Position numbers and translations under genes: made by a program
Assembly (NCBI GenBank): GCA_964635605.1
Contig: CAZWPU010000002.1
Location: 1 to 39,018 of the forward strand
DNA from: an uncultured Bacteroidales bacterium
GTDB taxonomy: Bacteria > Bacteroidota > Bacteroidia > Bacteroidales > UBA12077
Direction: 5' to 3'
Length of the DNA: 39,018 bases
The notes under the pieces: model-generated
Databases searched by the model: none
What the model was told of the DNA's origin: nothing
The model's input: the letters and a program-made list of their open reading frames with translations, nothing else
Shown: piece after piece, positions 24,237-39,018 of the stretch
Layout of the letters: every line of letters starts with the position of its first letter
How positions within the stretch are numbered: position 1 is the first letter of the stretch

Positions 24237-24595
24237 AATATATATTATATTTAATTATTTTAAATTTATATCTATATAATAATAATAATATCCTGTTAAT
24301 ATTGTTCTAAAATTTTTAATAATTCACTTGACTTTTATGATATTAAAAAGTTGTTAAACCTGTTTTAACAATGTAAATTAACTTTATTGTATTGATTTTT
24401 AAATTTTTAAAGCTATTATTAACATGTTGTTAATATGGATATATAGTGAAAACTTTTTGAGTAAAAATTAACTTTTATGGTTAAAAAAATGTTTGAAATT
24501 TGTGTGACAAAACTAAAAAAATATTTTTGATAAATCTTTAAAATTTTTATATAGAACACTCTTTTAATATATCAAGTAATAGTTTTTAAAATTTA

Positions 24596-24644
24596 TTGAC
24601 TTTAATTAACATTTACTTAACAATAATTGACAAAGAAATTAACA
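24596..24644 (+). repeat. Five same-orientation TTRAC(A/T) hexamers at 10-12-bp phasing
   Basis: TTGACT 24596, TTAACA 24606, TTAACA 24617, TTGACA 24627 and TTAACA 24639. Start-to-start spacings are 10, 11, 10 and 12 bp. Confidence 0.5.
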
Positions 24645-24814
24645 TTAAGTGAAAATAAGGTAAAGTATTTTAAATTTCTATGATCTAAACTATTTATGTG
24701 TTTTATTAATAGTATATTATTAATTAAAATAGTATATTTTATTATAAATCTTTATTATATAAAATTTTAAAAATTGTTATTTTAAAATATTTATAATAAA
24801 ATAAATATATTGGT

Positions 24815-24822
24815 TAAATTTG
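24815..24822 (+). promoter_or_regulatory. Candidate -7 box (TAAATTTG) for rpiB
   Basis: Matches TAnnTTTG, 37 nt upstream of the ATG at 24859. No clear -33 element, and the AT-rich background makes chance matches likely. Confidence 0.25.
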
Positions 24823-24858
24823 AGTAATGGAAATTAATAAATTATATTTTATTTAATT

Positions 24859-26276: not shown

Positions 26277-29200
26277 ATGGACAAAAGAGATGCAATAATA
26301 AAATCATTACTAAAAGATTTAAAAAAAGAAAATATCAATACCTGGTTTGATTTGGGTTTGTTTTTAGACAGAATTAAAGAAAGCCGGGACGTTTCAAAAT
26401 TTAAATTTTCTGGAAGTTATTATAAGGAATTTAAAGAATTCATGTGTAATTCAAACATGGCCTTTTTAACTTTTCAATATGCTATTGATGGTGTTAGTAT
26501 TGAAGTAAAAAAATATACCAAAATTTTCAAGGATAAATATAACACATCAAACATTCATTATATAGCTGGTAAATTTTTCCCGGAATCGAAAAAAATGATA
26601 CCGGAATATGTGAAAAAATTTGAATTAGAGTCCATACAAGGTTTTGATGACTGGAAATTGTATAAAGATTTTTTCTTTACACATTTAGAGCGCGGTAGTA
26701 AAGAATATAATGAATTAATCATTAAATTCTGGAAAGAAACATTACAAATTGTTAAGGAACTGGGGAATTATATTGTATATGAAAATATTCAATTGCTCTA
26801 TTTGATTAATGTTTGTTCAAATCCGGGAAATGTTTCTTTAGCCCTGGCCGTTACTTTACTTTCCGAATATTTAAAAATTCCGGTAATAAATAATAGCCAC
26901 GATTTTTTCTGGGAAGGCGGGAACAAAGAAATTAATAAAAAAGTATATCATTTACCCGATGGACCTCGCGATTTCTTTTTTAAAAATGCACATGTAGGCG
27001 AAATTTTTTCTATTATAGAAATGTTGTATCCGTGGGATTCACGAATATGGATGCATGTTAATATCAATAAACAACAATCCGAACGATTGATTAAAATTAA
27101 CGGAATAAATCCTGCAAATGTAACCGAAATTGGAACTGCCGTTGATACGGATGAATATCAAAATACGACGAAGAGAAAAAAAATCAGCACCTTTTATCAA
27201 TTTGAAAAAATTTTAAGTCGTTACCAAGATACATTGATAAGTTATTCAGTTAAAGATGTATTGGAAAGTAATCTGGTTTCTCCCTATTTTATAAGACCTA
27301 TTTTAATAGGAGCCCGAAAAACGAAACCTTTACCTAAATTTCTAAATGAAAATATTATTTTTTTACAGCCTACACGTATCATTGCACGTAAACGAATTGA
27401 AATAGGATTTAATTTAGTTAAGAAACTTTTTGATGAAGAAGATTTTTATAACCGTTTTAAGGAAACAAAAAATCTTAAGCTTACTCTTTTAATTACCGGC
27501 CCAATTGCTTCAGGACACTTTGAATATTTTAAGCAATTACTGAATCGTTTTCAACAATTATTAAAAAATCTGGAACCCAAAATCCGTAATAAAGTATTTT
27601 TAGCTTTTTTGTTTAGCGAGCTGGATAAAAAAACTTTTAAGGAAAAGTTTGATGATCCGGTAGGAATTCCTGAATTGTATAATATTGCTTCGTTAGTTTT
27701 GCTGCCGAGTAAAACTGAAGGCCGTGGATTGCCCATTATTGAAGCAACTGCTTGCGGAACGCCAATTTTTTGCAGCCGCTATTATCCTGAAAATGTATAT
27801 TCCGAAGTAATTGGAGAGCACCTTCCACATCAGGACAGGCTCAAAGTTATTGAGTTTGATGGAAAAAATATCACTAAAAAGCACACTAAAAAAATTATGG
27901 AAAGTGTATTTTTTCCCCATAAATTTACCCATGTTATTGCACATAATCAGCAAGTTGTTAATAAAAGATATAGCTTAAAATCACTTAAAATAAATTTTGA
28001 TGATATTTGTCAAAAATTTTATTATCAGATAGGTACTAAAAATACTGTATTTAATAAAGCAAAAAAAGCCCTTCAATCTTATCAAAAAATTGTTAATTAT
28101 ACTAATGCCGATTTAGAAGCTATATTAGATATTCAAAATCGTGAATATTTACCGGGTTTTGGACGACTGCGATTTATGATTTTATTAAAATCACTCATTG
28201 ATCCCAGCTATTTTAGGGTTGAAGAGCAATTTTTTCGTGGGAAAGCTTATCAATATGCAAGACAAACTTTGGAAAAAGATGAAGGTGAAATTACTACCAA
28301 AAAGAAACTCCAATTTTTTAATGCTGTAGAAAGTATCTTTTTATATCACACAGGAGAAATGGATATTCAACACGACCATTCGTTGCCTTATCGTCATCGT
28401 AATAAAAATAAGTATCCATACCAGGATTTTACTATACAAGAGTTAAGTGGGTTAATAAATATGCTTTATTATGACATTATTCCCATTCAGGAGAAACCGG
28501 AAATTGATGTAAACGCACATTTTTTTACCGATTTTGATTTGGCTTTATCGCAATTAACTTCAAGTACTTATTTAGGTATTGACGACCGCAAATTTTTAAT
28601 AAAAAAATTGCAATCGAATGTTCCTATTGCCTATTTCCCCGGGAAATATATCCAAAATGAGATTGAATTTTTTGCCTTGCAATCTGTTCGCTCAAGGTTA
28701 GAATTAAAAATTGATGAAGAATTAACAGAAGATATATTGAAAGAATGTTCTGAATACATTTCTCCTGTTTATATCATGGCCAGTACAAAAACAACGATTG
28801 AAAATTATAACCGCGATAGTATTGAAAAGTTTATTTTGGAAGGGAATGATGAAGAATTGAAATTACTTTATCAATATAAAATTCTGCAAGTAGTTAATAT
28901 TGATCAGTGGTGTGTAGGAATCCATTTTAATCAGCTGGGAGAGGAAGGATTAAAAGCACTGCGAAGAGTAAAAGAAGAAAAAGGATTTATTATTTCAAAT
29001 CGTACAGAAGCTGCTGTAATGACTGATATTGTTGATATAGACAGGTTTCATATAGGAAAAATTGAAGACCGTATTACCGAGTCAATTATGGGAATACCGA
29101 TGAATACCGGATTTATTCAGTATGTTCCTGCCGGAATGCGGGTTACATTAGCTTATCCCACGCCTGTTCAAACGGCCAAAGATTTTCATGATTATTTAAA

Positions 29201-30452
29201 AAGTGATGAATTTAATAAAGCCATTAAGAAATTTGGAGAAAAGAAAGTTTTTGAAATTTTACATAAAGATGCAAAGGTCAAATTGTCACCTGTTAAAAAA
29301 GTGATAGGCGATTTGTTGGCTTCGAATGAATCAGCAGATGTGGTTTCTTATGAGTTTGTGAGCGGAGTGTATAAGGATAGACGGCCATGGAACGGGGTAA
29401 TAGCCAAAACCCGCTTGGATAAAGCAAAATGGGAATTCATCATTCGATCATCAGAAAAAACTCAACCGGTAACATCATTTATAAATGATTTTGAAAAAGA
29501 GTATAAGCAACCTGTAAAAATTGCATGGAATGGAGGTTATATTCTTAATCCGGAATTGGTTGGAAAATTAGGATTACCTGAATCCTATATTGGTTCACCC
29601 TTGGGTTTGTTAATAGCAGATGGAAAAGTGTTAAGTGCTCCTTTATTTAATAAGCCTGCATTAGTTTTTACCGATAATGGTGTTGATATCTTTCGGGTAA
29701 ATTGTTCAAAAGGTGTCTGTGTTTCACGTGGAACAGTTTCTCTAGAGTTTTCTCAGGCTCAATACAATAACGAATCGGATAAAGAAAATCCCGCTTTTTT
29801 TGATTTGATGTATGATAAAGAAGAAATTGATGCCCATGGAAAAACATTTGTTCGTTTAGCCGGGAATATTATTAAAGATATAGTGGAAACCAAAGAAAAT
29901 CAGAAAGTTAAAATTATTCCTGTAGGGTTAACACTGGCCTTTCTTCAAGATAAATTTCCTGCCGACTGGAAAATTGGAGATGAGGTTGAATTAAAAATTA
30001 AAGGGTTGGAAAATATTATTCATGCGGTTGAGGCTGGCCCTATGTTGATTGATAATGGAAAAATATGTCTGGATATGGAAATAGAAGGATGGAAAACACA
30101 ACATTCGATTAAAACACAAGCAGCCCGATTAGATTATACCGATATGCGCGGGCCTAAAATTGCCGCAGGAATTGATAATAAAAATAATCTTGTTGTTTTA
30201 GCTATTAACGGACGAATACGTGAGTCGGTTGGTGCTACACACCTTAATATGGCTGAAATTTTACAAAAGTTTAATATCATTAAAGGCATGGGTTTCGATC
30301 CCGGAGGAAGCAGCACGTTGGTAGTTAACGGAGAAACATTAAATATTTCTCCCTATAATAGCCGATACGAAGAAAATGTTTTTTCTCTGCCTCCGCAACC
30401 TAGAGCTGTTTCTAACGTTGTAATGGGATATATACAAAACAAAGAAAAATAA
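26277..30452 (+). CDS. 1,391-aa multidomain protein: GT4-like glycosyltransferase + unassigned central region + phosphodiester glycosidase (NAGPA/DUF2233-like) domain
   Basis: One uninterrupted 4,176-nt ORF. Roughly aa 60-560 form a GT-B/GT4-like module, with E-x7-E EGRGLPIIEA at nt 27717-27743. This module is clearly paralogous to the GT at 34147-35433 (DGVSIEVKKY vs DGVALETEKW; IPVINNSHDFFWEGG vs IPTITHDHDFAWERG). Roughly aa 1075-1391 carry AWNGGY (nt 29523-29540), GPMLIDNGK and FDPGGSSTLVVNG (nt 30297-30314), which are hallmarks of the phosphodiester glycosidase family. No signal peptide or TM helix seen. Confidence 0.85.
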   Translation: MDKRDAIIKSLLKDLKKENINTWFDLGLFLDRIKESRDVSKFKFSGSYYKEFKEFMCNSNMAFLTFQYAIDGVSIEVKKYTKIFKDKYNTSNIHYIAGKFFPESKKMIPEYVKKFELESIQGFDDWKLYKDFFFTHLERGSKEYNELIIKFWKETLQIVKELGNYIVYENIQLLYLINVCSNPGNVSLALAVTLLSEYLKIPVINNSHDFFWEGGNKEINKKVYHLPDGPRDFFFKNAHVGEIFSIIEMLYPWDSRIWMHVNINKQQSERLIKINGINPANVTEIGTAVDTDEYQNTTKRKKISTFYQFEKILSRYQDTLISYSVKDVLESNLVSPYFIRPILIGARKTKPLPKFLNENIIFLQPTRIIARKRIEIGFNLVKKLFDEEDFYNRFKETKNLKLTLLITGPIASGHFEYFKQLLNRFQQLLKNLEPKIRNKVFLAFLFSELDKKTFKEKFDDPVGIPELYNIASLVLLPSKTEGRGLPIIEATACGTPIFCSRYYPENVYSEVIGEHLPHQDRLKVIEFDGKNITKKHTKKIMESVFFPHKFTHVIAHNQQVVNKRYSLKSLKINFDDICQKFYYQIGTKNTVFNKAKKALQSYQKIVNYTNADLEAILDIQNREYLPGFGRLRFMILLKSLIDPSYFRVEEQFFRGKAYQYARQTLEKDEGEITTKKKLQFFNAVESIFLYHTGEMDIQHDHSLPYRHRNKNKYPYQDFTIQELSGLINMLYYDIIPIQEKPEIDVNAHFFTDFDLALSQLTSSTYLGIDDRKFLIKKLQSNVPIAYFPGKYIQNEIEFFALQSVRSRLELKIDEELTEDILKECSEYISPVYIMASTKTTIENYNRDSIEKFILEGNDEELKLLYQYKILQVVNIDQWCVGIHFNQLGEEGLKALRRVKEEKGFIISNRTEAAVMTDIVDIDRFHIGKIEDRITESIMGIPMNTGFIQYVPAGMRVTLAYPTPVQTAKDFHDYLKSDEFNKAIKKFGEKKVFEILHKDAKVKLSPVKKVIGDLLASNESADVVSYEFVSGVYKDRRPWNGVIAKTRLDKAKWEFIIRSSEKTQPVTSFINDFEKEYKQPVKIAWNGGYILNPELVGKLGLPESYIGSPLGLLIADGKVLSAPLFNKPALVFTDNGVDIFRVNCSKGVCVSRGTVSLEFSQAQYNNESDKENPAFFDLMYDKEEIDAHGKTFVRLAGNIIKDIVETKENQKVKIIPVGLTLAFLQDKFPADWKIGDEVELKIKGLENIIHAVEAGPMLIDNGKICLDMEIEGWKTQHSIKTQAARLDYTDMRGPKIAAGIDNKNNLVVLAINGRIRESVGATHLNMAEILQKFNIIKGMGFDPGGSSTLVVNGETLNISPYNSRYEENVFSLPPQPRAVSNVVMGYIQNKEK

Positions 30453-30456
30453 ACAA

Positions 30457-31584
30457 TTGGCAGGTATTTATTTACATATTCCGTTTTGTAAAAGAAAATG
30501 TGCATATTGCGATTTTTTTTCGCTGGCTAATGCAAAACATCAAGACGATTTTGTACAAGCCATTCTTCAGGAGGTTTCGTTGCAGCAACATTACCTGGAT
30601 AATGAACGTGTGCAAACCATTTATTTTGGAGGAGGTACACCTTCATTGCTTTCTATTGGACAGTTGGAAGAAATACTAAATGCTTTGCATAAAAATTTTA
30701 GAATTGATAAAAATATCGATCTAACCCTCGAAGGTAATCCTGAAAATTTAACTCAAACTTTTTTAAGAGATTTAAAATCCCTTGGATTTAATCGGTTAAG
30801 TATTGGAATACAGTCGTTCAACGATGATGATTTAATGTTGATGCGTAGAACACATAATGCAAAAACAGCTGTTAAATCTATTTATAATGCAAAAAATCAA
30901 GGATTTAAGAATATTTCTGTTGATTTAATTTACGGATTACCCAATTTTACACGTGAAAAATGGGAAAAAAATTTAGAGCAAACCTTTCTGTTAGATGTGC
31001 AACATATTTCTGCCTATCATTTAACCATTGAACCCAAAACTCTTTTTAAAAAGTGGTATGATGAAAATAAAATTCATTTACCAAACGAAGAGAAAAGTTT
31101 AGAACAATATCAGCTTTTGGTCGAAAAAACTGCTGCCAACGGATTTTTACATTATGAAATTTCCAATTTTGCCAAAGATGGATTTCTTTCGTTACATAAC
31201 ACCAATTATTGGGTGGGTGTAAAGTACTTAGGATTAGGCCCTTCTGCGCATTCGTATAATTTAACTTCACGACAATGGAATATTTCAAATCTGCACGTAT
31301 ATTTGGCCGAAATATCAAAAGGAAATATACCATTCGAAAGGGAAAATTTGTCGTTACAGGAAAAATATAACGATTTTATTATAACATCTTTTCGAACCAT
31401 GTGGGGATTAAATTTGGAAAAATTTGTTTTAAATTTTGGGTCATCGTATAAAAAATATTTTTTAAAAAAAATTGAAAAATATTTGGATCAAGAATTTTGT
31501 ATACAAAATCATGATCAAATAAAATTATCCGAACAAGGAATGTTTATTTCTGATCATATTATGACTGATTTATTTTTTGAATAA
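30457..31584 (+). CDS. hemW: Radical SAM heme chaperone HemW (HemN-like, oxygen-independent coproporphyrinogen oxidase family)
   Basis: 375 aa. CxxxCxxC motif FCKRKCAYCDFF, GGGTPS, and a HemN_C-like tail. The apparent TTG start lies 4 nt after the upstream stop. Confidence 0.85.
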   Translation: MAGIYLHIPFCKRKCAYCDFFSLANAKHQDDFVQAILQEVSLQQHYLDNERVQTIYFGGGTPSLLSIGQLEEILNALHKNFRIDKNIDLTLEGNPENLTQTFLRDLKSLGFNRLSIGIQSFNDDDLMLMRRTHNAKTAVKSIYNAKNQGFKNISVDLIYGLPNFTREKWEKNLEQTFLLDVQHISAYHLTIEPKTLFKKWYDENKIHLPNEEKSLEQYQLLVEKTAANGFLHYEISNFAKDGFLSLHNTNYWVGVKYLGLGPSAHSYNLTSRQWNISNLHVYLAEISKGNIPFERENLSLQEKYNDFIITSFRTMWGLNLEKFVLNFGSSYKKYFLKKIEKYLDQEFCIQNHDQIKLSEQGMFISDHIMTDLFFE

Positions 31585-31595
31585 AAATATTTTTT

Positions 31596-33758
31596 ATGAT
31601 ATCAACAGGAAAATTGTTTGAAGACCAGGAACCTTTTCGTTTATTATTTGAATTATCGAATGATCCAATTTTAATATTCAAAGATTTTCAGTTTGTAGAT
31701 TGCAATAAGGCAACTTTAACATTATTAGGTTTTTCGTCTAAGAAAGAGTTTGAAACAGCAATAGATGAAGTATTGGCTCCTGAATATCAGCTCGATGGAG
31801 AGAAATCATCCGTTAAAGTGAAAACGATGATGAATAAAGCTTACCAAAAAGGCAATCATCGATTCGAATGGGTACATTTAAATAAAAAGAAAGAAGTGAT
31901 ATATGTTGATGTAACATTAACCCAAATATCTTATCTGGAGCAAAATTATCTTTTTGCTATTTGGCGGGATATGTCCAAACAAAAGAAATATGAAAAAAAT
32001 CTGGAAGAAAGCGAAAAATTGTATAGTACCTTATTTGAACAGGCAGCTGATGGTATTTTGGTTGGGATTAATAAGGGTGAAATTATTGACGCCAATAAAA
32101 GTGCTTGTAAATTAATAGGTTATAATAAAGATGAATTGATAGGAAAAAATATAAAACATTTATTCAGCCCGAAAGAATTAGCAATAAATCCATTGAGGTA
32201 TGATTTAATTAAGAACGGAGATACAATAATAAAGGAGCGTGAAATTGTATGCAAAGACGGGAAAGTTGTTCCTGTAGAAATGAATACGAAGATTTTAGAA
32301 GACGGACGTATGCAGACTTTATTTCGAGACATTTCGGTTCGGAAAATGGCTGAAAAAGCTCTTATTGAAAGTGAAGAGAAATACCGCAATGTATTTAAAT
32401 ATGCTCCGCTTGGGATTTTTCATTACGACCAAAACGGAGTTATTACTGATTGTAATCAGAACTTTATAGATATTATTGGTTCTTCGAAAGAGCAGTTGAT
32501 AGGACTGAATATGCTCAAAGATTTAAATAATCTTGAAATAACTAAAAAAATTGAGCTTTCCTTAAAAACAGGAGAAGGAGTATATGAAAACTGGTACACT
32601 TCGGTAACCGGAAAAAAAACGACCTTTGTAAAAGGCTTATTTAAATGTATATTCGATGAAAATAGAAACTTTATTTCCGGTATTGGGCTCATTGAAGATA
32701 TTACTCAACGTAAAAAAGCAGAGATAGCCCTAATTGAGAGTGAGCAAAAATACCGAATGCTTTTTGAAAATGCCAGCGATTCTATAATGATTATGAACGA
32801 AGATATTTTTGTTGATTGTAATGAAAAAACGTTGGAATTATTTGGATGCTCAAAAAAAGAACTAATAGGGCAGTCTCCTTATAAATTCAGCCCTAAAAAA
32901 CAGCCAGATGGGAGAAGTTCAAAAGAAAAGGCTAGAGAAAAAATAAAGGAAGCAATACAAGGAAAGTCGAAAATTTTTGAATGGGTACACCAAAAAGCTG
33001 ATGGAACAAATTTTTATACCGAAGTAAGTTTAAATGTTTTTGATTTACAAAATAAAAATACGGTACAAGCTATTGTCCGCGATATCTCTGATAGAAAAGA
33101 ATTTGAACAACGAATTTACGAAACAATTATTGAAACAGAAGAACGCGAAAGGCAGCGTTTAGCAAGCGATATACACGACGAAATAGGGCCATTATTATCC
33201 AGTTTGAAAGTGTATATTGAGTCATTAAATCCGAAAGGAGACGCCACAAAACAACAATACATTAAAAGCAAACTTCAGGAATTGATTAAAGAAACGATTG
33301 ATAATGTCCGAGAAGTTTCTAATGCAATCAGCCCATACTTACTAAATAAATATGGAATGGAAGCAGCTATTGAATCTTTTATTAAACAAACAGAAAATAT
33401 TCTTACCATTCATTTTAAATCCAACCTAAAGGATAAAAGGTTTCCGCTCAAAACAGAAATTGTTTTTTTTAGGATTATTAAAGAGCTGATAAATAATACG
33501 CTAAAACATGCCCGGGCTAAAAATATTGGCGTACATTTGCAATATAACAAAGGTGAATTGCTTTTGTGTTATACCGATGATGGAATTGGTTTAGATAAGA
33601 AATATTTATCTTCAGGTAAAACAGAAGGGATGGGATTATTTAATATCATTAACCGGGTTAACTCAATACAAGGAGATTATAAATTTTACGAAATGTCAGA
33701 CGGTTTTAAATTTACATTAACCAAAAAGACACCTTTACTGGAAAGCATAAAAAAATAA
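31596..33758 (+). CDS. Cytoplasmic sensor histidine kinase, 4 x PAS + HisKA_3 + HATPase_c
   Basis: 720 aa with no TM segment. Four PAS-like modules begin at about FRLLFELSNDPILIF, YSTLFEQAADGILVG, YRNVFKYAPLGIFHYD and YRMLFENASDSIMIMN. HisKA_3 H-box ERQRLASDIHDEIGPLL; ATPase N and G boxes (ELINNTLKHA, DDGIGL, GMGLFNI). Confidence 0.9.
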   Translation: MISTGKLFEDQEPFRLLFELSNDPILIFKDFQFVDCNKATLTLLGFSSKKEFETAIDEVLAPEYQLDGEKSSVKVKTMMNKAYQKGNHRFEWVHLNKKKEVIYVDVTLTQISYLEQNYLFAIWRDMSKQKKYEKNLEESEKLYSTLFEQAADGILVGINKGEIIDANKSACKLIGYNKDELIGKNIKHLFSPKELAINPLRYDLIKNGDTIIKEREIVCKDGKVVPVEMNTKILEDGRMQTLFRDISVRKMAEKALIESEEKYRNVFKYAPLGIFHYDQNGVITDCNQNFIDIIGSSKEQLIGLNMLKDLNNLEITKKIELSLKTGEGVYENWYTSVTGKKTTFVKGLFKCIFDENRNFISGIGLIEDITQRKKAEIALIESEQKYRMLFENASDSIMIMNEDIFVDCNEKTLELFGCSKKELIGQSPYKFSPKKQPDGRSSKEKAREKIKEAIQGKSKIFEWVHQKADGTNFYTEVSLNVFDLQNKNTVQAIVRDISDRKEFEQRIYETIIETEERERQRLASDIHDEIGPLLSSLKVYIESLNPKGDATKQQYIKSKLQELIKETIDNVREVSNAISPYLLNKYGMEAAIESFIKQTENILTIHFKSNLKDKRFPLKTEIVFFRIIKELINNTLKHARAKNIGVHLQYNKGELLLCYTDDGIGLDKKYLSSGKTEGMGLFNIINRVNSIQGDYKFYEMSDGFKFTLTKKTPLLESIKK

Positions 33759-33773
33759 TATATTATATTTATT

Positions 33774-34136
33774 ATGACCGTACTCATTGTAGATGATAAT
33801 AAACAATTTTTAGAAGCATTTAAATTTTTTCTACAGGAAAATTTTTCGGATAGAATAGAAGAAATTTTTGAAGTATCGAATGGGCAAGAATGTCTCGATA
33901 TTTTAAAAAGAAATGCAATAGATATTGTTTTTATGGATTTTGAAATGCCTGTAATGAATGGGGTTGAAGCAACCAAAATAATAGTTGATTTATACCGTAA
34001 CTTAAAAGTAGTAGCAGTATCCTTTCATTCTGAGCTTGAAGATATGGAAAAAATGTTAGAAGCAGGAGCCCGTAATTATATTATAAAAGAAGAAATTAGC
34101 CCCGAAGCCGTAGAAAAATGTTTTACAAACATGTAA
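33774..34136 (+). CDS. Stand-alone receiver (REC-only, CheY-like) response regulator
   Basis: 120 aa. Acidic pocket VDDN, phospho-acceptor in FMDFEMPVMNG, conserved S (VAVSF) and K (YIIKE). No output domain. Confidence 0.9.
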   Translation: MTVLIVDDNKQFLEAFKFFLQENFSDRIEEIFEVSNGQECLDILKRNAIDIVFMDFEMPVMNGVEATKIIVDLYRNLKVVAVSFHSELEDMEKMLEAGARNYIIKEEISPEAVEKCFTNM

Positions 34137-34146
34137 AATCAGACGT

Positions 34147-35433
34147 TTATTTTTTTGTTGCCAACGTAATTAATTTTGATAATTTTTCTTCAAGCGTATC
34201 GTAAGAAAAATATTTTTCCCCTAACTGAAAATTATATTCCCCAATTTCTTTATTTAATTGATCATTGTATATTATTTCCTGCATTTTCTTTAGTGCTTTA
34301 TCTGTAATTTGATTATCTTCAAGCATAACCGTTTTAAATCCCTTACTTCCAATATCTGGCCAATATACTGGTTTATAGTTATTAACAAATATTGATTTTT
34401 TGGCTAATACCGCTTCGACAAAAGCATTACCAAAACCCTCATAGGTGCTAAAATAAGTACAAGCCCGAGCGTGTGCATAGGCATCCGATAAGGAATAGCT
34501 TTTATCATTTACCGAGCCAGCAAACCCTTTCGTAGAAAAGCTGTGATAAGCAAAATGTACTTGTTTACTAATTTTAAGTTGATGAATTAAATCTACCAGT
34601 TCCATATAATATTCACTTCCGGCATCATCGGCATAATTGCCGGTAATAATAAGTTTGATTTTTGGATTATTTAATAAATCAATGAGTTTAATTGCCGTTT
34701 CGATACCTTTACGGCGAACAATTCGGGTAATCTGAAATAATAAAATATCATCATCATCAAGGCCTAAATCTTTGCGTAGATCTTTGTTGTTCGCCGTTAT
34801 TTGGCCAAAAGGTTTATCAAAATCCATCACATTAGGAACCACAATGGATTCTCGATTGTATTTTTCTTTTAATGTTTTTTGAGCATGTAGGTTAATTACT
34901 GCATGAAAACTATTTGGTAATTGTAAAGGGAAAGTATCTTTTACAATTTGATTAATTTTTTTGTGCGGAGAAACATATCTGTTGCCTCTTTCCCAGGCAA
35001 AATCATGGTCGTGCGTTATGGTTGGTATCTGTAATTTTTCTACGGCTTTTTTTATGGCTAATCCCATTGAAATGTGGGATGGCAATGCTGATGCATTTTC
35101 TGATATCAATAATTGAATATTATGTGTTTTTACCCAGTCAATAATTTTACGTTCAATAACATTAGCATATAAAAGCAAATGCTCAAGTAACTCATCTTCA
35201 TCGTAATCGGGGTTAAAATAGGCTTTTTTTTGTTCCCAATAACTTTCGGGCGAAAAAAAAGACATTTCCTGAACACGGGTTTCATGTTGACAATCAATTT
35301 TTCTTCCTTCAAACTGACCGGAAATAATAAAAATTTCATGGCCCATACGTTGCAATACTTCAATCCATTTTTCGGTTTCCAAAGCAACACCGTCAACACC
35401 TCCAATACGGCCTATTATGATTCCTATTTTCAT
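34147..35433 (-). CDS. GT4-family (GT-B) glycosyltransferase, paralogue of the N-terminal module of the 1,391-aa protein
   Basis: 428 aa. Gly-rich N-terminus GRIGGVDGVALE, HDHDFAWERG, FQITRIVRRKGIE and E-x7-E EGFGNAFVEA. Confidence 0.85.
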   Translation of the reverse strand: MKIGIIIGRIGGVDGVALETEKWIEVLQRMGHEIFIISGQFEGRKIDCQHETRVQEMSFFSPESYWEQKKAYFNPDYDEDELLEHLLLYANVIERKIIDWVKTHNIQLLISENASALPSHISMGLAIKKAVEKLQIPTITHDHDFAWERGNRYVSPHKKINQIVKDTFPLQLPNSFHAVINLHAQKTLKEKYNRESIVVPNVMDFDKPFGQITANNKDLRKDLGLDDDDILLFQITRIVRRKGIETAIKLIDLLNNPKIKLIITGNYADDAGSEYYMELVDLIHQLKISKQVHFAYHSFSTKGFAGSVNDKSYSLSDAYAHARACTYFSTYEGFGNAFVEAVLAKKSIFVNNYKPVYWPDIGSKGFKTVMLEDNQITDKALKKMQEIIYNDQLNKEIGEYNFQLGEKYFSYDTLEEKLSKLITLATKK

Positions 35434-36739: not shown

Positions 36740-37087
36740 CTATTTTTCTGTGTCCGAATTTATTTCTTTTTTATTTTCTGCTTCTTCTTTTTCTCGGGCT
36801 TTTTGGTTTAAGCCGTATTCTTTTTTATAATCGGCTAAAATAGTATTCAATTTCTCCACTTCTTTTTTATGATCCGATAATTTTTTCTTTTGTTTTAAAA
36901 TAGAAGGATAAGAAAAAATAATACCTAAAATAACCCCAATAATAATGGTTACCAGAAGAATTAACGAAAGAGAACCTTTTACCGGATCGCCCCAAAGGAA
37001 ATAGAGAGCAACTTCAGTATCGTTTCTTAAAGCAAAAATAACCAGTATAAGTGCTGATAATAATCCAATAATTAATGATCGTTGCAT
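36740..37087 (-). CDS. LapA/DUF1049-like small membrane protein with a charged coiled-coil tail
   Basis: 115 aa. Two TM helices, then a K/E-rich tail. Lies 12 nt downstream of the hybrid kinase gene. Confidence 0.5.
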   Translation of the reverse strand: MQRSLIIGLLSALILVIFALRNDTEVALYFLWGDPVKGSLSLILLVTIIIGVILGIIFSYPSILKQKKKLSDHKKEVEKLNTILADYKKEYGLNQKAREKEEAENKKEINSDTEK

Positions 37088-37099
37088 GGCCTTGTATTT

Positions 37100-39018
37100 T
37101 TATTTGTAAATGTAGTGATTTATTTTTTCAATCAAAACATCTTTTTTTAATGGTTTGGCTACGTAATCATCACAACCATTTTTAAGGCAAATGTAACAAT
37201 CGTCGTATAATGCATAAGCTGTTTGTGCTATTACCGGAATATCTGGATTAATCGCTTTAATTATTTGAGTTGTTTCCAATCCATCCATTTGTGGGAGATG
37301 GATGTCCATTAGTACTATTTGTATTGTTTGATCTTGTCTTATAATTTCAACAGCTTCTTCTCCTGTTTTTGCTGATAAAACTATTGCTCCGTTTTTTTCT
37401 AATAGTGTACGTAAAAATTCTAAATTATCGGTATTGTCTTCAACCACTAATATTTTAATATTATCCCATTTCTGCAGAATTGCTTTTTTATCATTCATAA
37501 TCAATTTTTCACTATTAACTAAAGAATCATATTTATCAGGAACAGTAAAATAAAATGTTGTTTCGTTATGGGTTGATTCAAACCAAATTTTTCCTCCTAA
37601 CAGTTTCGCGAATCCCTTACAGATAGAAAGGCCCAGGCCGGTTCCTTTATAGGTTTTATTATTTTGGCTTTTGATTTGTCCAAAACGTTTAAAGATAATG
37701 GATGATTTTTCTTCAGGTATTCCAATTCCAGAGTCTGAAACATAAAACCGAAAATAAGGAATTTTATTAATTTTTATCGCTTCGTAACCTACTTTTATAT
37801 ATCCTTTATTGGTAAATTTTAATGCATTATTCAGCAAATTACTTAATATTTGTTTTAACCGGACAATATCGGTATAAATTTGTGGATTATCCTTTTGTTT
37901 ATTAATCGTAAAGCTAATATGTTCTTTATTTAGTCGATGTTGTTCCTGTTTAAATTGAAGGTAGATGTCGTCCATTATGGTATTAAGGCATGCAGAAGAT
38001 TTGTTTATTGAGAGTTGTTCGGCTTCAATTTTTGCAATATCTATAATATCATCAATCAGTTTTAATAATTGTTTCCCGTTGGAATTAATGATTTTAATAT
38101 AGGTTTCTTTTTCTTCGTCGTTAATAAAGGGATCGCGAAGCAGTTCGGCAAAACCTAAAATTCCGTTCATGGGCGTTCTGATTTCGTGCGACATATTGGC
38201 TAAAAAAGCAGATTTAAGCCTGTCGCTTTCTTCGGCTTTTTCCTTAGCTAAGGTTAATTGCTTTAGAAGTTGTTTTTGTTCCGTTATGTCGCTGGCAATT
38301 CCGGCTCTTCTATAAAGCTCTCCTTTTTCATTAAAAACCGGGAAAGTTCGTATCCAAAGCCATCGGATTTCTCCGTCTGGCCGTATTATTCGATGTTGAT
38401 AATAATGTGTTTTTTCTGGATAATTTTGATTTTCTAGTTTTTGACTAATCGCTTCCTCTTTATCCTCAGGATGAATCCATTGTTCATATTCGTTAAAATT
38501 TTCAAAAATATTTTTAGAATTTTCTCCAATAATTTTTTTACAAGCCGGATTCATATAAATAACTTTTTGGTCGAGTGTACGTAGCCAAAAGGCATCGTTT
38601 ATATTATTGGTCAGTTGGTGAAAATTTTTTTCACTCCTTTTAAGTTTTTCAATTAAATTTTTTTGGGCAGAAATATTAACAATTATTCCTCGCAAACCTT
38701 TTATTTTATTGTTTTGAAGAATAGGATTCGAGTATACCAAAACGGGAAATCTTTTTCCTTTTTTGGTAATGGCCATATATTCTATTCCTTTTGAATTTTC
38801 AATTTTATTTTCAAAATTTTTTTTAATATTCTCCCTGGCTCTGAATATATGTTCAGGAGCAATCATTTGTAAAGCATGAAGTCCCTTTTTGAAATCTTCA
38901 GGAGTATATCCAAATATTTCGTATGCTTTTAAGTTTATAAAAGTTAAGTTTCCTTGTATATCTGTTTCATAAACAACTTCGGGCAAAAGAGTAGCTAGGT
39001 CTTTAAACTTTTCTTCGC
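37100..39018 (-). CDS. PAS-containing hybrid sensor histidine kinase/response regulator (5' end outside the window)
   Basis: At least two PAS modules, HisKA H-box FLANMSHEIRTPMNGI, HATPase_c (GTGLGLSICKG) and C-terminal REC (ILVVEDN...VLMDIHLPQMDG...KP). The frame stays open from 38986 to the window edge (EEKFKDLATLLPEV...), so the TTG 'start' in the ORF track is an artefact. Confidence 0.9.
   Translation of the reverse strand, partial: EEKFKDLATLLPEVVYETDIQGNLTFINLKAYEIFGYTPEDFKKGLHALQMIAPEHIFRARENIKKNFENKIENSKGIEYMAITKKGKRFPVLVYSNPILQNNKIKGLRGIIVNISAQKNLIEKLKRSEKNFHQLTNNINDAFWLRTLDQKVIYMNPACKKIIGENSKNIFENFNEYEQWIHPEDKEEAISQKLENQNYPEKTHYYQHRIIRPDGEIRWLWIRTFPVFNEKGELYRRAGIASDITEQKQLLKQLTLAKEKAEESDRLKSAFLANMSHEIRTPMNGILGFAELLRDPFINDEEKETYIKIINSNGKQLLKLIDDIIDIAKIEAEQLSINKSSACLNTIMDDIYLQFKQEQHRLNKEHISFTINKQKDNPQIYTDIVRLKQILSNLLNNALKFTNKGYIKVGYEAIKINKIPYFRFYVSDSGIGIPEEKSSIIFKRFGQIKSQNNKTYKGTGLGLSICKGFAKLLGGKIWFESTHNETTFYFTVPDKYDSLVNSEKLIMNDKKAILQKWDNIKILVVEDNTDNLEFLRTLLEKNGAIVLSAKTGEEAVEIIRQDQTIQIVLMDIHLPQMDGLETTQIIKAINPDIPVIAQTAYALYDDCYICLKNGCDDYVAKPLKKDVLIEKINHYIYK

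What the first reader, a model, noticed from the sequence alone, without database searches (positions are those of the whole stretch)
26277..35433. Candidate glyco-signalling locus: giant GT fusion - hemW - 4xPAS kinase - REC-only regulator, closed by a convergent GT paralogue
Seen in sequence: four plus-strand genes are separated by only 4, 11 and 15 nt (30452/30457, 31584/31596, 33758/33774), so co-transcription is likely. The cluster ends 10 nt from the stop of a convergent 428-aa glycosyltransferase. That protein is an unmistakable paralogue of the fusion's N-terminal module, with several shared blocks: DGV[SA][IL]E..K[YW], NIQLL, IP.I...HDF.WE.G, P/QxTRI..RK.IE and EG.G....EA. Inference: two paralogous GTs bracketing a dedicated cytoplasmic PAS kinase and a single-domain receiver suggest a regulated two-glycosylation pathway. 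The product could be a di-glycosylated solute or a phosphoglycan. Control would be post-translational, because the regulator has no DNA-binding domain.
Basis: partly seen in the sequence, partly recalled or inferred. Interest (0 to 1): 0.7.

Follow-up and report, generated by a model that had tools for sequence, protein, structure and literature searches.

The report
Three-domain sugar enzyme; kinase is incidental
The genes are exactly as described, but the sensor kinase and receiver are a recent, lineage-specific insertion into an older conserved gene block, and the real curiosity is the 1391-residue cytoplasmic enzyme, an uncharacterised fusion of a glycosyltransferase, a degenerate phosphatase-like fold and a sugar-phosphodiester glycosidase domain.

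Summary
All five ORFs, the 4/11/15/10-nt gaps and the shared sequence blocks of the two glycosyltransferases are present.

- 58 related loci have at least 3 kb of sequence downstream of the giant gene. In 27 of them the order is giant gene, hemW, convergent 428-aa GT, with no kinase.
- The PAS kinase plus receiver sits between hemW and the GT in only 14, all in one clade, and nested lineages in that clade lack it.
- Orthologous receivers elsewhere belong to a PAS-HisKA_3 kinase / NarL-type regulator / receiver module. That module lies in unrelated contexts.
- nadA and rpiB upstream are conserved as often as the GT, so neighbourhood conservation is weak evidence of function.

The 1391-aa protein has three domains: an MggS-like GT4, a cryptic DUF89-fold domain that probably lacks the canonical Asp-Asn site, and a NAGPA-type domain that keeps its catalytic Asp and Arg. 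No transmembrane-like hydrophobic segment was found, so it is probably cytoplasmic. It occurs in at least 376 species, and in other phyla it stands alone.

Most likely this is a cytoplasmic sugar-nucleotide or sugar-phosphate enzyme. The MggS-like paralogue may act in the same pathway. hemW is a passenger, and the two-component genes are not dedicated to the locus. I found no paper on this architecture.

The parts
26277..30452 (+). Gene for the 1391-aa three-domain protein ('giant'). No transmembrane-like hydrophobic segment was found (signal peptides were not specifically predicted).
   Evidence: ORF. More than 700 full-length homologues and 376 species genomes. Conserved along its whole length. 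Maximum hydropathy is below the transmembrane range.
26277..28046 (+). Residues 1-590: N-terminal helices plus a GT-B fold GT4 module of the MggS-like subfamily.
   Evidence: Pfam Glycos_transf_1 at 37 bits and NF041101 at 53.7 bits. AF2 model pLDDT 86; best Foldseek matches are HepE, SPS-like, MshA, GlgM and BshA. The motifs QPTR..RK and EGRGLPxxE are conserved in distant homologues.
28074..29321 (+). Residues ~600-1015: cryptic DUF89-fold domain. The canonical Asp-Asn loop is probably replaced by Pro-Gly-Lys. It has its own invariant DHSxxYRHRN loop at 700-709.
   Evidence: No Pfam hit. AF2 model pLDDT 85.6. Foldseek matches 2g8l, 1xfi, 2ffj, 8tkz and 7u1x at E 3.5e-7 to 3e-4. A profile of divergent homologues finds 2g8l as the top PDB hit, E 8.5e-4, with a residue alignment. 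Conservation.
29334..30449 (+). Residues ~1020-1391: NAGPA/DUF2233-type phosphodiester glycosidase domain with a DPGGS loop (1341-1345) and R1376.
   Evidence: PF09992 at 53.8 bits. PDB sequence hits 5h3k at E 2e-11 and vertebrate NAGPA. Foldseek 5h3k at E 5e-21. Catalytic residues as defined in PMC13474241 are conserved.
30457..31584 (+). hemW, the radical SAM haem chaperone family; most likely a co-transcribed passenger.
   Evidence: TIGR00539 at 298.9 bits, above the cut-off. The CX3CX2C motif is present. It lies directly downstream of the giant gene in 42 of 58 loci.
31596..33758 (+). Soluble sensor histidine kinase with 4 PAS domains, HisKA_3 and HATPase_c; a lineage-specific insertion.
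   Evidence: No transmembrane segment. Present at this position only in the window's clade, with a variable N-terminal part.
33774..34136 (+). Single-domain receiver (REC only) with intact phospho-acceptor residues; inserted together with the kinase.
   Evidence: 212 orthologues of about 120 aa. Elsewhere it is found with a PAS-HisKA_3 kinase and a NarL-type regulator.
34147..35433 (-). 428-aa MggS-like GT4 ('GT428'), an ancient paralogue of the giant's GT module, in convergent orientation.
   Evidence: NF041101 at 224.7 bits over the full length, below the 640 cut-off. BLASTP against the giant protein. Orthologues are 63-93% identical across the loci.

Best explanation
This is an old, conserved chromosomal block of Bacteroidales-type genomes: nadA< rpiB> rrf2> vanZ< giant> hemW> <GT428. 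In the window's clade only, a soluble PAS-HisKA_3 kinase and a single-domain receiver were inserted between hemW and GT428. The giant gene encodes a soluble enzyme with no transmembrane-like segment, so probably cytoplasmic. It has three domains. (1) A retaining GT4 glycosyltransferase of the MggS-like subfamily with intact donor-binding motifs. (2) A DUF89-fold domain that appears to have lost the canonical Asp-Asn nucleophile/metal site; it more likely binds a phosphorylated ligand, or uses a non-canonical site, than acts as a standard DUF89 phosphatase. (3) A NAGPA-type domain that keeps the Asp and Arg used to break a sugar-1-phosphate glycosidic bond. Inferred mechanism: the protein acts on cytoplasmic sugar nucleotides or sugar-1-phosphate compounds. 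The GT4 domain transfers a sugar from an NDP-sugar to a small acceptor. The NAGPA-type domain cleaves or transfers a second sugar whose leaving group is a phosphate. The MggS-like GT428 may add a further sugar in the same pathway. hemW is a housekeeping passenger. The kinase and receiver belong to a module that relocates among genomes and are not a dedicated regulator of the two GTs. Shown: gene order, domain identities, conservation patterns and the distribution of the kinase/receiver. Inferred: substrates, the order of reactions and any link between the giant protein and GT428.
For: Coordinates and domains. Paralogy. The family is large and conserved over its full length. Synteny: of 58 loci with at least 3 kb downstream, 42 have hemW adjacent, 27 show giant-hemW-<GT428 with no kinase, 14 carry the kinase and receiver, 3 carry a reversed receiver/NarL-regulator/kinase module at a different junction, and 13 have no GT428. 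Upstream, nadA is kept in 48 of 56 loci and rpiB in 47 of 56. In the giant-protein tree the insertion is confined to one clade, and nested lineages lack it. Receiver orthologues lie in unrelated contexts together with a NarL-type regulator. The window's receiver is no closer to the L028/L072 receivers (54-55% identity) than to those unrelated ones (50-59%). The 39-kb window has no NarL-type regulator. Structure. DUF89 homology at sequence level, and the residue mapping: using active-site definitions from PMC9062747. NAGPA catalytic Asp and Arg. None of the five proteins has a transmembrane-like segment. Distant full-length homologues occur in Oligoflexia, Myxococcales and unclassified MAGs; the two whose loci were examined (the Oligoflexia and unclassified ones) stand alone.
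Against: No substrate, product or expression data exist. The adjacency of two members of the same rare GT4 subfamily could reflect real coupling that I understate. A PAS-kinase/receiver module has landed next to the giant gene at two different junctions (window clade; L028/L037/L072), which could hint at a recurrent functional link. The DUF89 residue mapping rests on a weak alignment (per-domain E 0.13) and no superposition was possible. In the alternative register, D769-[D/N]770 would fit the DN motif. Co-occurrence of the giant gene and GT428 across whole genomes was not measured.
Confidence: 0.55

Rival explanations
1. One reading: a dedicated glyco-signalling operon. The PAS kinase senses a cytoplasmic cue and phosphorylates the single-domain receiver. 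The receiver then binds one or both GTs and controls a two-step glycosylation post-translationally.
For: Tight spacing and the same strand for four genes, with no terminator-like site at the junctions. The receiver and kinase have intact catalytic residues. The arrangement is kept in 14 related loci. A homologous module sits beside the giant gene at another junction in L028, L037 and L072.
Against: The kinase and receiver are absent from 27 loci that keep giant-hemW-GT428, and from nested members of the same clade (L039, L013, L023). Orthologous receivers occur with a NarL-type DNA-binding regulator in unrelated contexts: L086, L087 beside MCP and CheW genes, and L088. HisKA_3 kinases normally pair with NarL-type regulators (established knowledge). 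The two giant homologues examined outside the close family, L092 and L093, have no such neighbours.
Confidence: 0.12
2. The giant protein and GT428 are peripheral-membrane enzymes that build a cell-envelope glycoconjugate (LPS core, glycolipid or exopolysaccharide precursor). The NAGPA-type domain trims a sugar-1-phosphate-linked intermediate.
For: Bacterial PF09992 proteins are commonly annotated as exopolysaccharide-related, and one JGI name says so. Many GT4 enzymes act on lipid-linked acceptors (Foldseek matches include PimB' and PglA). The neighbours include the membrane protein VanZ upstream and LapA and an outer-membrane beta-barrel downstream.
Against: The giant protein has no transmembrane-like segment (signal peptides and amphipathic anchors were not specifically tested). 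The best structural matches are mostly GT4s that act on small molecules or sugar phosphates: SPS, MshA, GlgM and BshA. The nearest characterised sequence family is a compatible-solute synthase. No flippase, polymerase or Wzx/Wzy genes are in the conserved block. The envelope-gene neighbours are not retained in L092 and L093.
Confidence: 0.2
3. Pure synteny: the giant gene, hemW and GT428 have unrelated functions and are neighbours only because the whole region is a slowly rearranging block.
For: nadA and rpiB upstream are kept as often (48 of 56 and 47 of 56) as GT428 (45 of 58). GT428 orthologues occur away from the giant gene, and giant genes occur without GT428 nearby (L003, L005, L026, L027, L054, L058, L064, L092, L093).
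Against: The two GTs belong to the same uncommon MggS-like GT4 subfamily and share the HDFxWE motif. That is unlikely for random neighbours, although it reflects a single ancestral event.
Confidence: 0.3

Closest known systems
Mannosylglucosylglycerate synthase MggS (Petrotoga mobilis / Thermotoga maritima; NCBIfam NF041101)
   Same: GT428 aligns end to end with the family model (residues 1-422 to positions 1-431, E 1.8e-66). The giant's GT module has the same best NCBIfam hit. MggS is a cytoplasmic retaining GT4 that adds a second sugar to a small glycoside (PMC3736172).
   Different: The scores (224.7 and 53.7 bits) are far below the 640-bit equivalog cut-off. No gpgS/ggS-type partner gene was seen in the locus. 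Donor and acceptor are unknown. The Rhodopirellula MggS homologue had no detectable activity, so homology alone does not predict the reaction.
NAGPA, the 'uncovering enzyme', and bacterial DUF2233 proteins (PF09992; PDB 6pku, 3ohg, 5h3k Slr0280, 6ozd)
   Same: Same fold and Pfam family. The catalytic Asp lies in a D-x-G-G-S loop, and an invariant Arg lies 35 residues downstream, against 30 in human NAGPA.
   Different: The characterised members are secreted, luminal or exported. This domain has no signal peptide and is fused to cytoplasmic domains. The 'strictly invariant' DGGGS motif is DPGGS here. The substrate cannot be a lysosomal-enzyme glycan.
DUF89 / ARMT1-like metal-dependent damage-control phosphatases (PH1575, At2g17340, YMR027W, S. 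pombe Duf89/Duf8901)
   Same: Same fold (Foldseek E 3.5e-7, TM about 0.6), and weak but top-ranked sequence similarity of the profile to PH1575.
   Different: No PF01937 match. In the only supported alignment, the Asp-Asn nucleophile/metal pair corresponds to Gly789-Lys790. The domain is therefore probably not a canonical DUF89 phosphatase.
Synthase-phosphatase fusions of compatible-solute and disaccharide pathways (sucrose-phosphate synthase with an SPP-like domain, TPS-TPP, GgpPS, fused MpgS/MpgP)
   Same: A retaining GT fused to a phospho-metabolite-binding fold. SPS and SPS-like proteins are among the best structural matches of the GT module.
   Different: Those fusions use HAD-type phosphatases. 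Here the second domain has a DUF89 fold with a doubtful active site, and a third, NAGPA-type, domain has no counterpart in them.
HisKA_3 kinase / NarL-family two-component systems with an extra single-domain receiver
   Same: A HisKA_3 plus HATPase_c core, a PAS sensor array and a stand-alone receiver. Orthologous modules in L028, L072 and L086-L088 contain all three genes.
   Different: In the window's clade the NarL-type regulator is missing from the locus and from the 39-kb window.

Membership tests
GT4 retaining glycosyltransferases (both GTs) | Pfam Glycos_transf_1 match above the gathering score | tested here: met
   Giant protein 37.0 bits and GT428 54.6 bits, against a cut-off of 26.4.
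GT4 retaining glycosyltransferases (giant module) | GT-B fold with two Rossmann domains | tested here: met
   AF2 model pLDDT 86; 425 PDB matches at E<=1e-3, the best of them GT4 enzymes.
GT4 retaining glycosyltransferases (both GTs) | E-x7-E motif and the Arg/Lys that bind the donor diphosphate | tested here: met
   Giant protein: E481-x7-E489 and R367/K372, conserved in homologues down to about 27% identity. GT428: YEGFGNAFVEA and TRIVRRKGIE.
Mannosylglucosylglycerate synthase MggS (NF041101 equivalog) | Score at or above the curated cut-off of 640 bits | tested here: not met
   GT428 scores 224.7 bits and the giant protein 53.7 bits. They are related, not equivalent.
Mannosylglucosylglycerate synthase MggS | Transfers mannose from GDP-mannose to glucosylglycerate | not testable with these tools
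   Needs an enzyme assay. No gpgS/ggS-like gene was seen in the locus.
NAGPA / DUF2233 phosphodiester glycosidase (PF09992) | Pfam match above the cut-off, and the fold | tested here: met
   53.8 bits against 25. Foldseek matches to 5h3k, 6ozd, 6u11, 6pkg and 3ohg at E 5e-21 to 2e-10.
NAGPA / DUF2233 phosphodiester glycosidase | Catalytic Asp in the DGGGS loop and the downstream Arg (human D286, R316) | tested here: inconclusive
   The Asp is aligned and invariant, but the loop reads DPGGS. R1376 is invariant, but its equivalence to R316 rests on spacing, not on an alignment.
NAGPA / DUF2233 phosphodiester glycosidase | Secreted, luminal or exported location (signal peptide) | tested here: not met
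   No hydrophobic N-terminus or transmembrane segment. The domain is C-terminal to cytoplasmic-type domains.
DUF89 / ARMT1-like phosphatases (PF01937) | Pfam family match | tested here: not met
   No PF01937 hit, even at E<=10 on the isolated region.
DUF89 / ARMT1-like phosphatases | DUF89 fold | tested here: met
   Foldseek matches to six DUF89 entries from four organisms at E 3.5e-7 to 3e-4. A profile search finds 2g8l as the top PDB hit at E 8.5e-4.
DUF89 / ARMT1-like phosphatases | Asp-Asn nucleophile/metal pair plus a second metal-binding Asp (PMC9062747) | tested here: inconclusive
   The HMMER alignment places PH1575's T-D-N loop on F787-P788-G789-K790, so the pair would be lost. An alternative register uses invariant D769 followed by D or N. 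No coordinates were available for a superposition.
HemW (TIGR00539) | Score above the cut-off, the CX3CX2C cluster motif and a HemN_C domain | tested here: met
   298.9 bits against 205.4. HemN_C at 40.4 bits. The motif is C11-x3-C15-x2-C18.
Two-component system (kinase + receiver as a cognate pair regulating the adjacent GTs) | Kinase with an H-box and ATPase domain; receiver with the Asp pocket | tested here: met
   HisKA_3 and HATPase_c are present, with SDIHDE as the H-box. The receiver has D7, D8, D54, S83 and K105.
Two-component system (kinase + receiver as a cognate pair regulating the adjacent GTs) | Conserved genomic association with the proposed targets | tested here: not met
   Present in 14 of 58 loci, all in one clade. 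Orthologous modules lie in unrelated contexts.
Two-component system (kinase + receiver as a cognate pair regulating the adjacent GTs) | Phosphotransfer from the kinase to the receiver, and an effect on the GTs | not testable with these tools
   Needs biochemistry or genetics.

The most novel reading that the evidence does not exclude
The 1391-aa protein is a self-contained cytoplasmic enzyme that no one has described. In it, a NAGPA-type domain, known so far only from secreted or luminal proteins, applies its phosphate-leaving-group chemistry to an intracellular sugar-1-phosphate or sugar nucleotide. It would work together with a Leloir GT4 domain and a repurposed DUF89 fold to make, or turn over, an as yet unidentified soluble glycoside. 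The protein is conserved about as strongly as NadA in at least 376 species and is present in other phyla. A separate reading is not excluded but is less likely (about 0.1): that the single-domain receiver directly controls this enzyme.
Probability: 0.3. Interest if true: 0.7.

Novelty: new variant of a known kind. Interest (0 to 1): 0.45.

Why it matters
The 'glyco-signalling' reading would have been a rare case of a single-domain receiver controlling glycosyltransferases. Comparative data argue against it, which saves experimental effort. What remains is a large, deeply conserved enzyme family that databases label only 'phosphodiester glycosidase family protein'. Its middle third is unannotated and is shown here to have a DUF89 fold. 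Its NAGPA-type domain is in the wrong compartment for the known function of that family. Cultured carriers exist (Marinifilum fragile JCM 15579, Ancylomarina longa), so the product is directly testable. It could be a new cytoplasmic glycoside, possibly an osmolyte.

Tried and rejected
- **Promoter scans.** Sigma-70 and Bacteroidetes -7 motif (TAnnTTTG) scans gave counts equal to shuffled controls, so they are uninformative.
- **Terminator scan.** No site at any junction, and the overall count is below the shuffle mean.
- **Rfam on the whole window.** No family at gathering score.
- **PADLOC defence models.** Nothing except a generic radical-SAM match for hemW. The weak Pfam 'GT4-conflict' hit (19.7 bits, below the cut-off of 26) was dismissed.
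- **Pfam on the isolated middle region at E<=10.** Nothing relevant.
- **Synthase-phosphatase model.** I first read I768-D769-[D/N]770 as the DUF89 Asp-Asn motif and favoured a synthase-phosphatase model. A profile alignment to PH1575 places the catalytic loop on Pro-Gly-Lys instead, so I downgraded that model.
- **Recent tandem duplication as the cause of the paralogy.** Rejected. The two GTs share only 27-37% identity in local segments. The giant architecture also occurs in other phyla, and no GT paralogue was visible beside the two distant homologues whose loci were examined.
- **Compositional test for a foreign kinase/receiver insert.** GC is 0.29-0.33, the same as its neighbours.


Full report
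**Observation.**
- 26277-30452 +, 1391 aa.
- 30457-31584 +, 375 aa, TTG start.
- 31596-33758 +, 720 aa.
- 33774-34136 +, 120 aa.
- 34147-35433 -, 428 aa.

The gaps are 4, 11 and 15 nt, and 10 nt separate the two convergent stops.
- The second gene is hemW: TIGR00539 at 298.9 bits against a cut-off of 205.4, with a CX3CX2C motif.
- The third gene is a soluble kinase with four PAS stretches, HisKA_3 and HATPase_c.
- The fourth gene is a receiver-only protein with all phospho-acceptor residues.
- The fifth gene is a GT4.

The paralogy claim is sound. BLASTP gives two collinear segments, E 1e-10 and 2e-9. The listed motif blocks are all in the translations. Both proteins have the same best NCBIfam hit, NF041101 mannosylglucosylglycerate synthase. 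GT428 matches it end to end at 224.7 bits and the giant's module matches at 53.7 bits, both far below the 640-bit equivalog cut-off.

**What the giant protein is.** Pfam sees only a short Glycos_transf_1 stretch and a C-terminal NAGPA domain, leaving about 600 residues unannotated. The protein has more than 700 full-length homologues of about 1390 aa. It is conserved along its whole length, with 68% mean column identity among 12 diverse members. It occurs in 376 GTDB species genomes, nearly all Bacteroidales-type MAGs, plus cultured Marinifilum and Ancylomarina. I modelled it in two pieces.
- **Residues 1-600** (pLDDT 86.1, pTM 0.82) form a GT-B fold. The best PDB matches are HepE, sucrose-phosphate-synthase-like proteins, MshA, GlgM and BshA, which are mostly GT4s that act on small or phosphorylated acceptors.
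- **Residues 585-1391** (pLDDT 85.6, pTM 0.83) contain two folds. The C-terminal part matches Slr0280, BPSS2145, vertebrate NAGPA and BACOVA_00430. The middle part matches six DUF89 structures from four organisms at E 3.5e-7 to 3e-4, and no other fold follows until E>0.03.
- **Independent support for DUF89.** A sequence profile built from divergent homologues of the middle domain alone finds the DUF89 protein PH1575 (2g8l) as the top hit in the whole PDB, E 8.5e-4.

**Are the three domains active?**
- **GT module.** The donor-binding motifs (QPTR..RK and EGRGLPxxE) and the subfamily motif HDFxWE are kept in homologues down to about 27% identity.
- **NAGPA-type domain.** The residues proposed to break the sugar-phosphate bond in human NAGPA are D286, in an invariant DGGGS loop, and R316 (PMC13474241). 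The giant protein has D1341 in an invariant DPGGS loop, aligned to the DGGGS of frog and guinea-pig NAGPA. It also has an invariant R1376 thirty-five residues later.
- **DUF89-fold domain.** This one is doubtful. DUF89 enzymes use an Asp-Asn pair, a second Asp, lid residues and a Lys (PMC9062747). I first took I768-D769-[D in 87, N in 32 of 120 sequences] as that pair. However, the profile alignment to PH1575 puts the catalytic T-D-N loop on F787-P788-G789-K790, and puts the giant's I-D-D on an I-D-D that PH1575 has twenty residues upstream. The order of strands and helices in the model fits this second register. The canonical site is therefore probably lost. The domain keeps its own invariant polar set, including a low-confidence, lid-like loop D700-H-S-x-x-Y-R-H-R-N709. 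That is the kind of Arg/His-rich surface that binds phosphate.
- **Location.** None of the five proteins has a transmembrane-like segment.

**Neighbourhood in relatives.** I fetched 83 distinct loci and searched them with the window's proteins. Among the 58 loci with at least 3 kb downstream of the giant gene:

| Arrangement | Loci (of 58) |
|---|---|
| hemW directly downstream, same strand | 42 |
| giant - hemW - convergent GT428, no kinase | 27 |
| kinase and receiver between hemW and GT428, as in the window | 14 |
| reversed receiver / NarL regulator / PAS-HisKA_3 kinase between giant and hemW (L028, L037, L072) | 3 |
| no GT428 in the flank | 13 |

- On a tree of the giant proteins, the window-type insertion is confined to one clade. 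It is missing from L023 and from the nested L039/L012/L013 group.
- The upstream genes are kept as often as GT428: nadA in 48 of 56 loci and rpiB in 47 of 56. This is a generally stable block, so conservation of order alone says little about function.
- GT428 orthologues of 67% identity also occur far from any giant gene (L089-L091).
- An exhaustive search shows the 1390-aa architecture persists down to 26-34% identity. It occurs in Oligoflexia, Myxococcales and unclassified MAGs.
- In the two distant loci I could read, the giant gene stands alone, with no GT paralogue, hemW, kinase or receiver nearby. L092 shows only about 1.1 kb downstream.

**The kinase and receiver.** The receiver has 212 orthologues of about 120 aa at 50% identity or more. 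In three contexts examined outside the giant locus, the receiver lies within about 8 kb of a multi-PAS HisKA_3 kinase and a NarL-type (REC+GerE) regulator. It is directly adjacent to them only in L088.
- L086: near nucleotide-sugar genes.
- L087: between an MCP gene and a CheW gene.
- L088: beside a GH16 gene.

The window's receiver is as similar to these (50-59%) as to the receivers beside the giant gene in L028 and L072 (54-55%). So this is a module that moves about. In the window's clade it lacks its DNA-binding partner locally, and no NarL-type regulator is in the 39-kb window. The lack of a DNA-binding domain in the adjacent receiver is therefore not good evidence for post-translational control of the GTs. 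The regulator may simply be encoded elsewhere.

**Most likely mechanism.**
- **Shown:** a soluble three-domain protein with no transmembrane-like segment. It has a competent-looking GT4 domain, a competent-looking sugar-1-phosphate glycosidase-type domain and a DUF89 fold without the standard site. It is under strong purifying selection: median 55% identity at a divergence where NadA is 67% and HemW 44%.
- **Inferred:** it handles cytoplasmic sugar nucleotides or sugar-1-phosphate compounds. The GT4 domain glycosylates a small acceptor. The NAGPA-type domain uses a phosphate leaving group to cleave or transfer another sugar. The DUF89 fold binds a phosphorylated ligand or contributes a non-canonical activity. 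GT428, as an MggS-like enzyme, may add a further sugar (PMC3736172). In Petrotoga, MggS adds mannose to glucosylglycerate.
- **hemW:** best read as a housekeeping gene co-transcribed by position.
- **Weak hints of an osmolyte role:** an MscS channel gene is next to the distant homologue in L093, and TrkH and Hsp20 genes are near L005. I give these little weight.

**Comparison with known systems and novelty.** The parts belong to known superfamilies (GT4, DUF89 fold, PF09992, HemW, HisKA_3 two-component systems). The giant protein meets the tested GT4 features and the Pfam and fold criteria for PF09992, but the catalytic-loop test there is inconclusive (DPGGS, with the Arg placed by spacing). 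It fails the MggS equivalog threshold, the PF01937 sequence test and the secreted location typical of NAGPA-type proteins. Full-text searches found no paper on this architecture or on any cytoplasmic GT-NAGPA fusion. I rate it a new variant of a known kind. The 'glyco-signalling locus' as proposed is mostly not supported, and interest comes from the enzyme itself.

**Limits.**
- There are no expression or biochemical data.
- The DUF89 residue mapping rests on a weak alignment, without a superposition.

Noticed in passing
window 24237-24858: A 622-nt intergenic region of about 19% GC lies between divergent nadA and rpiB. Its length is kept in relatives (460-620 nt). It holds 8 of the window's 56 TTAACA/TGTTAA hexamers, several in columns invariant across six genomes. 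It looks like an array of transcription-factor half-sites. No Rfam family matches.
   Followed up: partly
L087 2951-10909: A receiver-only orthologue (50% identity to the window's receiver) sits between an MCP gene and a CheW gene, just downstream of a PAS-HisKA_3 kinase and a NarL-type regulator. This hints that the receiver family may act as a CheY-like adaptor in some genomes.
   Followed up: no
L028 14232-21073; L072 14340-20652: Very large soluble kinases (1720 and 1353 aa) with long PAS arrays, a NarL-type regulator and a receiver-only gene are inserted in reverse orientation between the giant gene and hemW. This is a different junction from the one used in the window's clade.
   Followed up: partly
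P0434, P0389, P0375, P0426 (distant giant homologues): Some distant family members have a degenerate GT site but a canonical DGGGS loop (P0434). Others keep the GT motifs but have lost the DPGGS loop and the Arg (P0389 from Oligoflexia, P0375, P0426). The two activities therefore seem separable in evolution.
   Followed up: no
L093 8916-9731 and 17242-18282; L005 6362-7801 and 14339-14773: A mechanosensitive-channel (MscS) gene lies divergently upstream of a distant giant homologue, with a PHO4 phosphate transporter downstream. In L005, TrkH lies upstream and Hsp20 downstream. These are anecdotal hints of an osmotic or stress context.
   Followed up: no
L010; L007 and L009: A MAG labelled Thiohalospira sp. 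carries this Bacteroidales-type block at 85% identity, which suggests a binning error. One MAG (20BLK6-1.bin.63) carries two versions of the whole locus on separate contigs (88% and 82% identity), which suggests a mixed bin.
   Followed up: no
window 37100-38986 (-) and 36740-37087 (-): A hybrid PAS-HisKA kinase with its own receiver domain lies next to a LapA-domain gene. The pair is syntenic in L001, and in L002 a small receiver gene takes that place.
   Followed up: no
L004 16712-17605; L089 8921-9832; L090 8845-9765: A DUF8429/DUF8428 gene lies next to GT428 orthologues, both where the giant gene is adjacent and where it is not. It may be a more faithful neighbour of GT428 than the giant gene is.
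   Followed up: no
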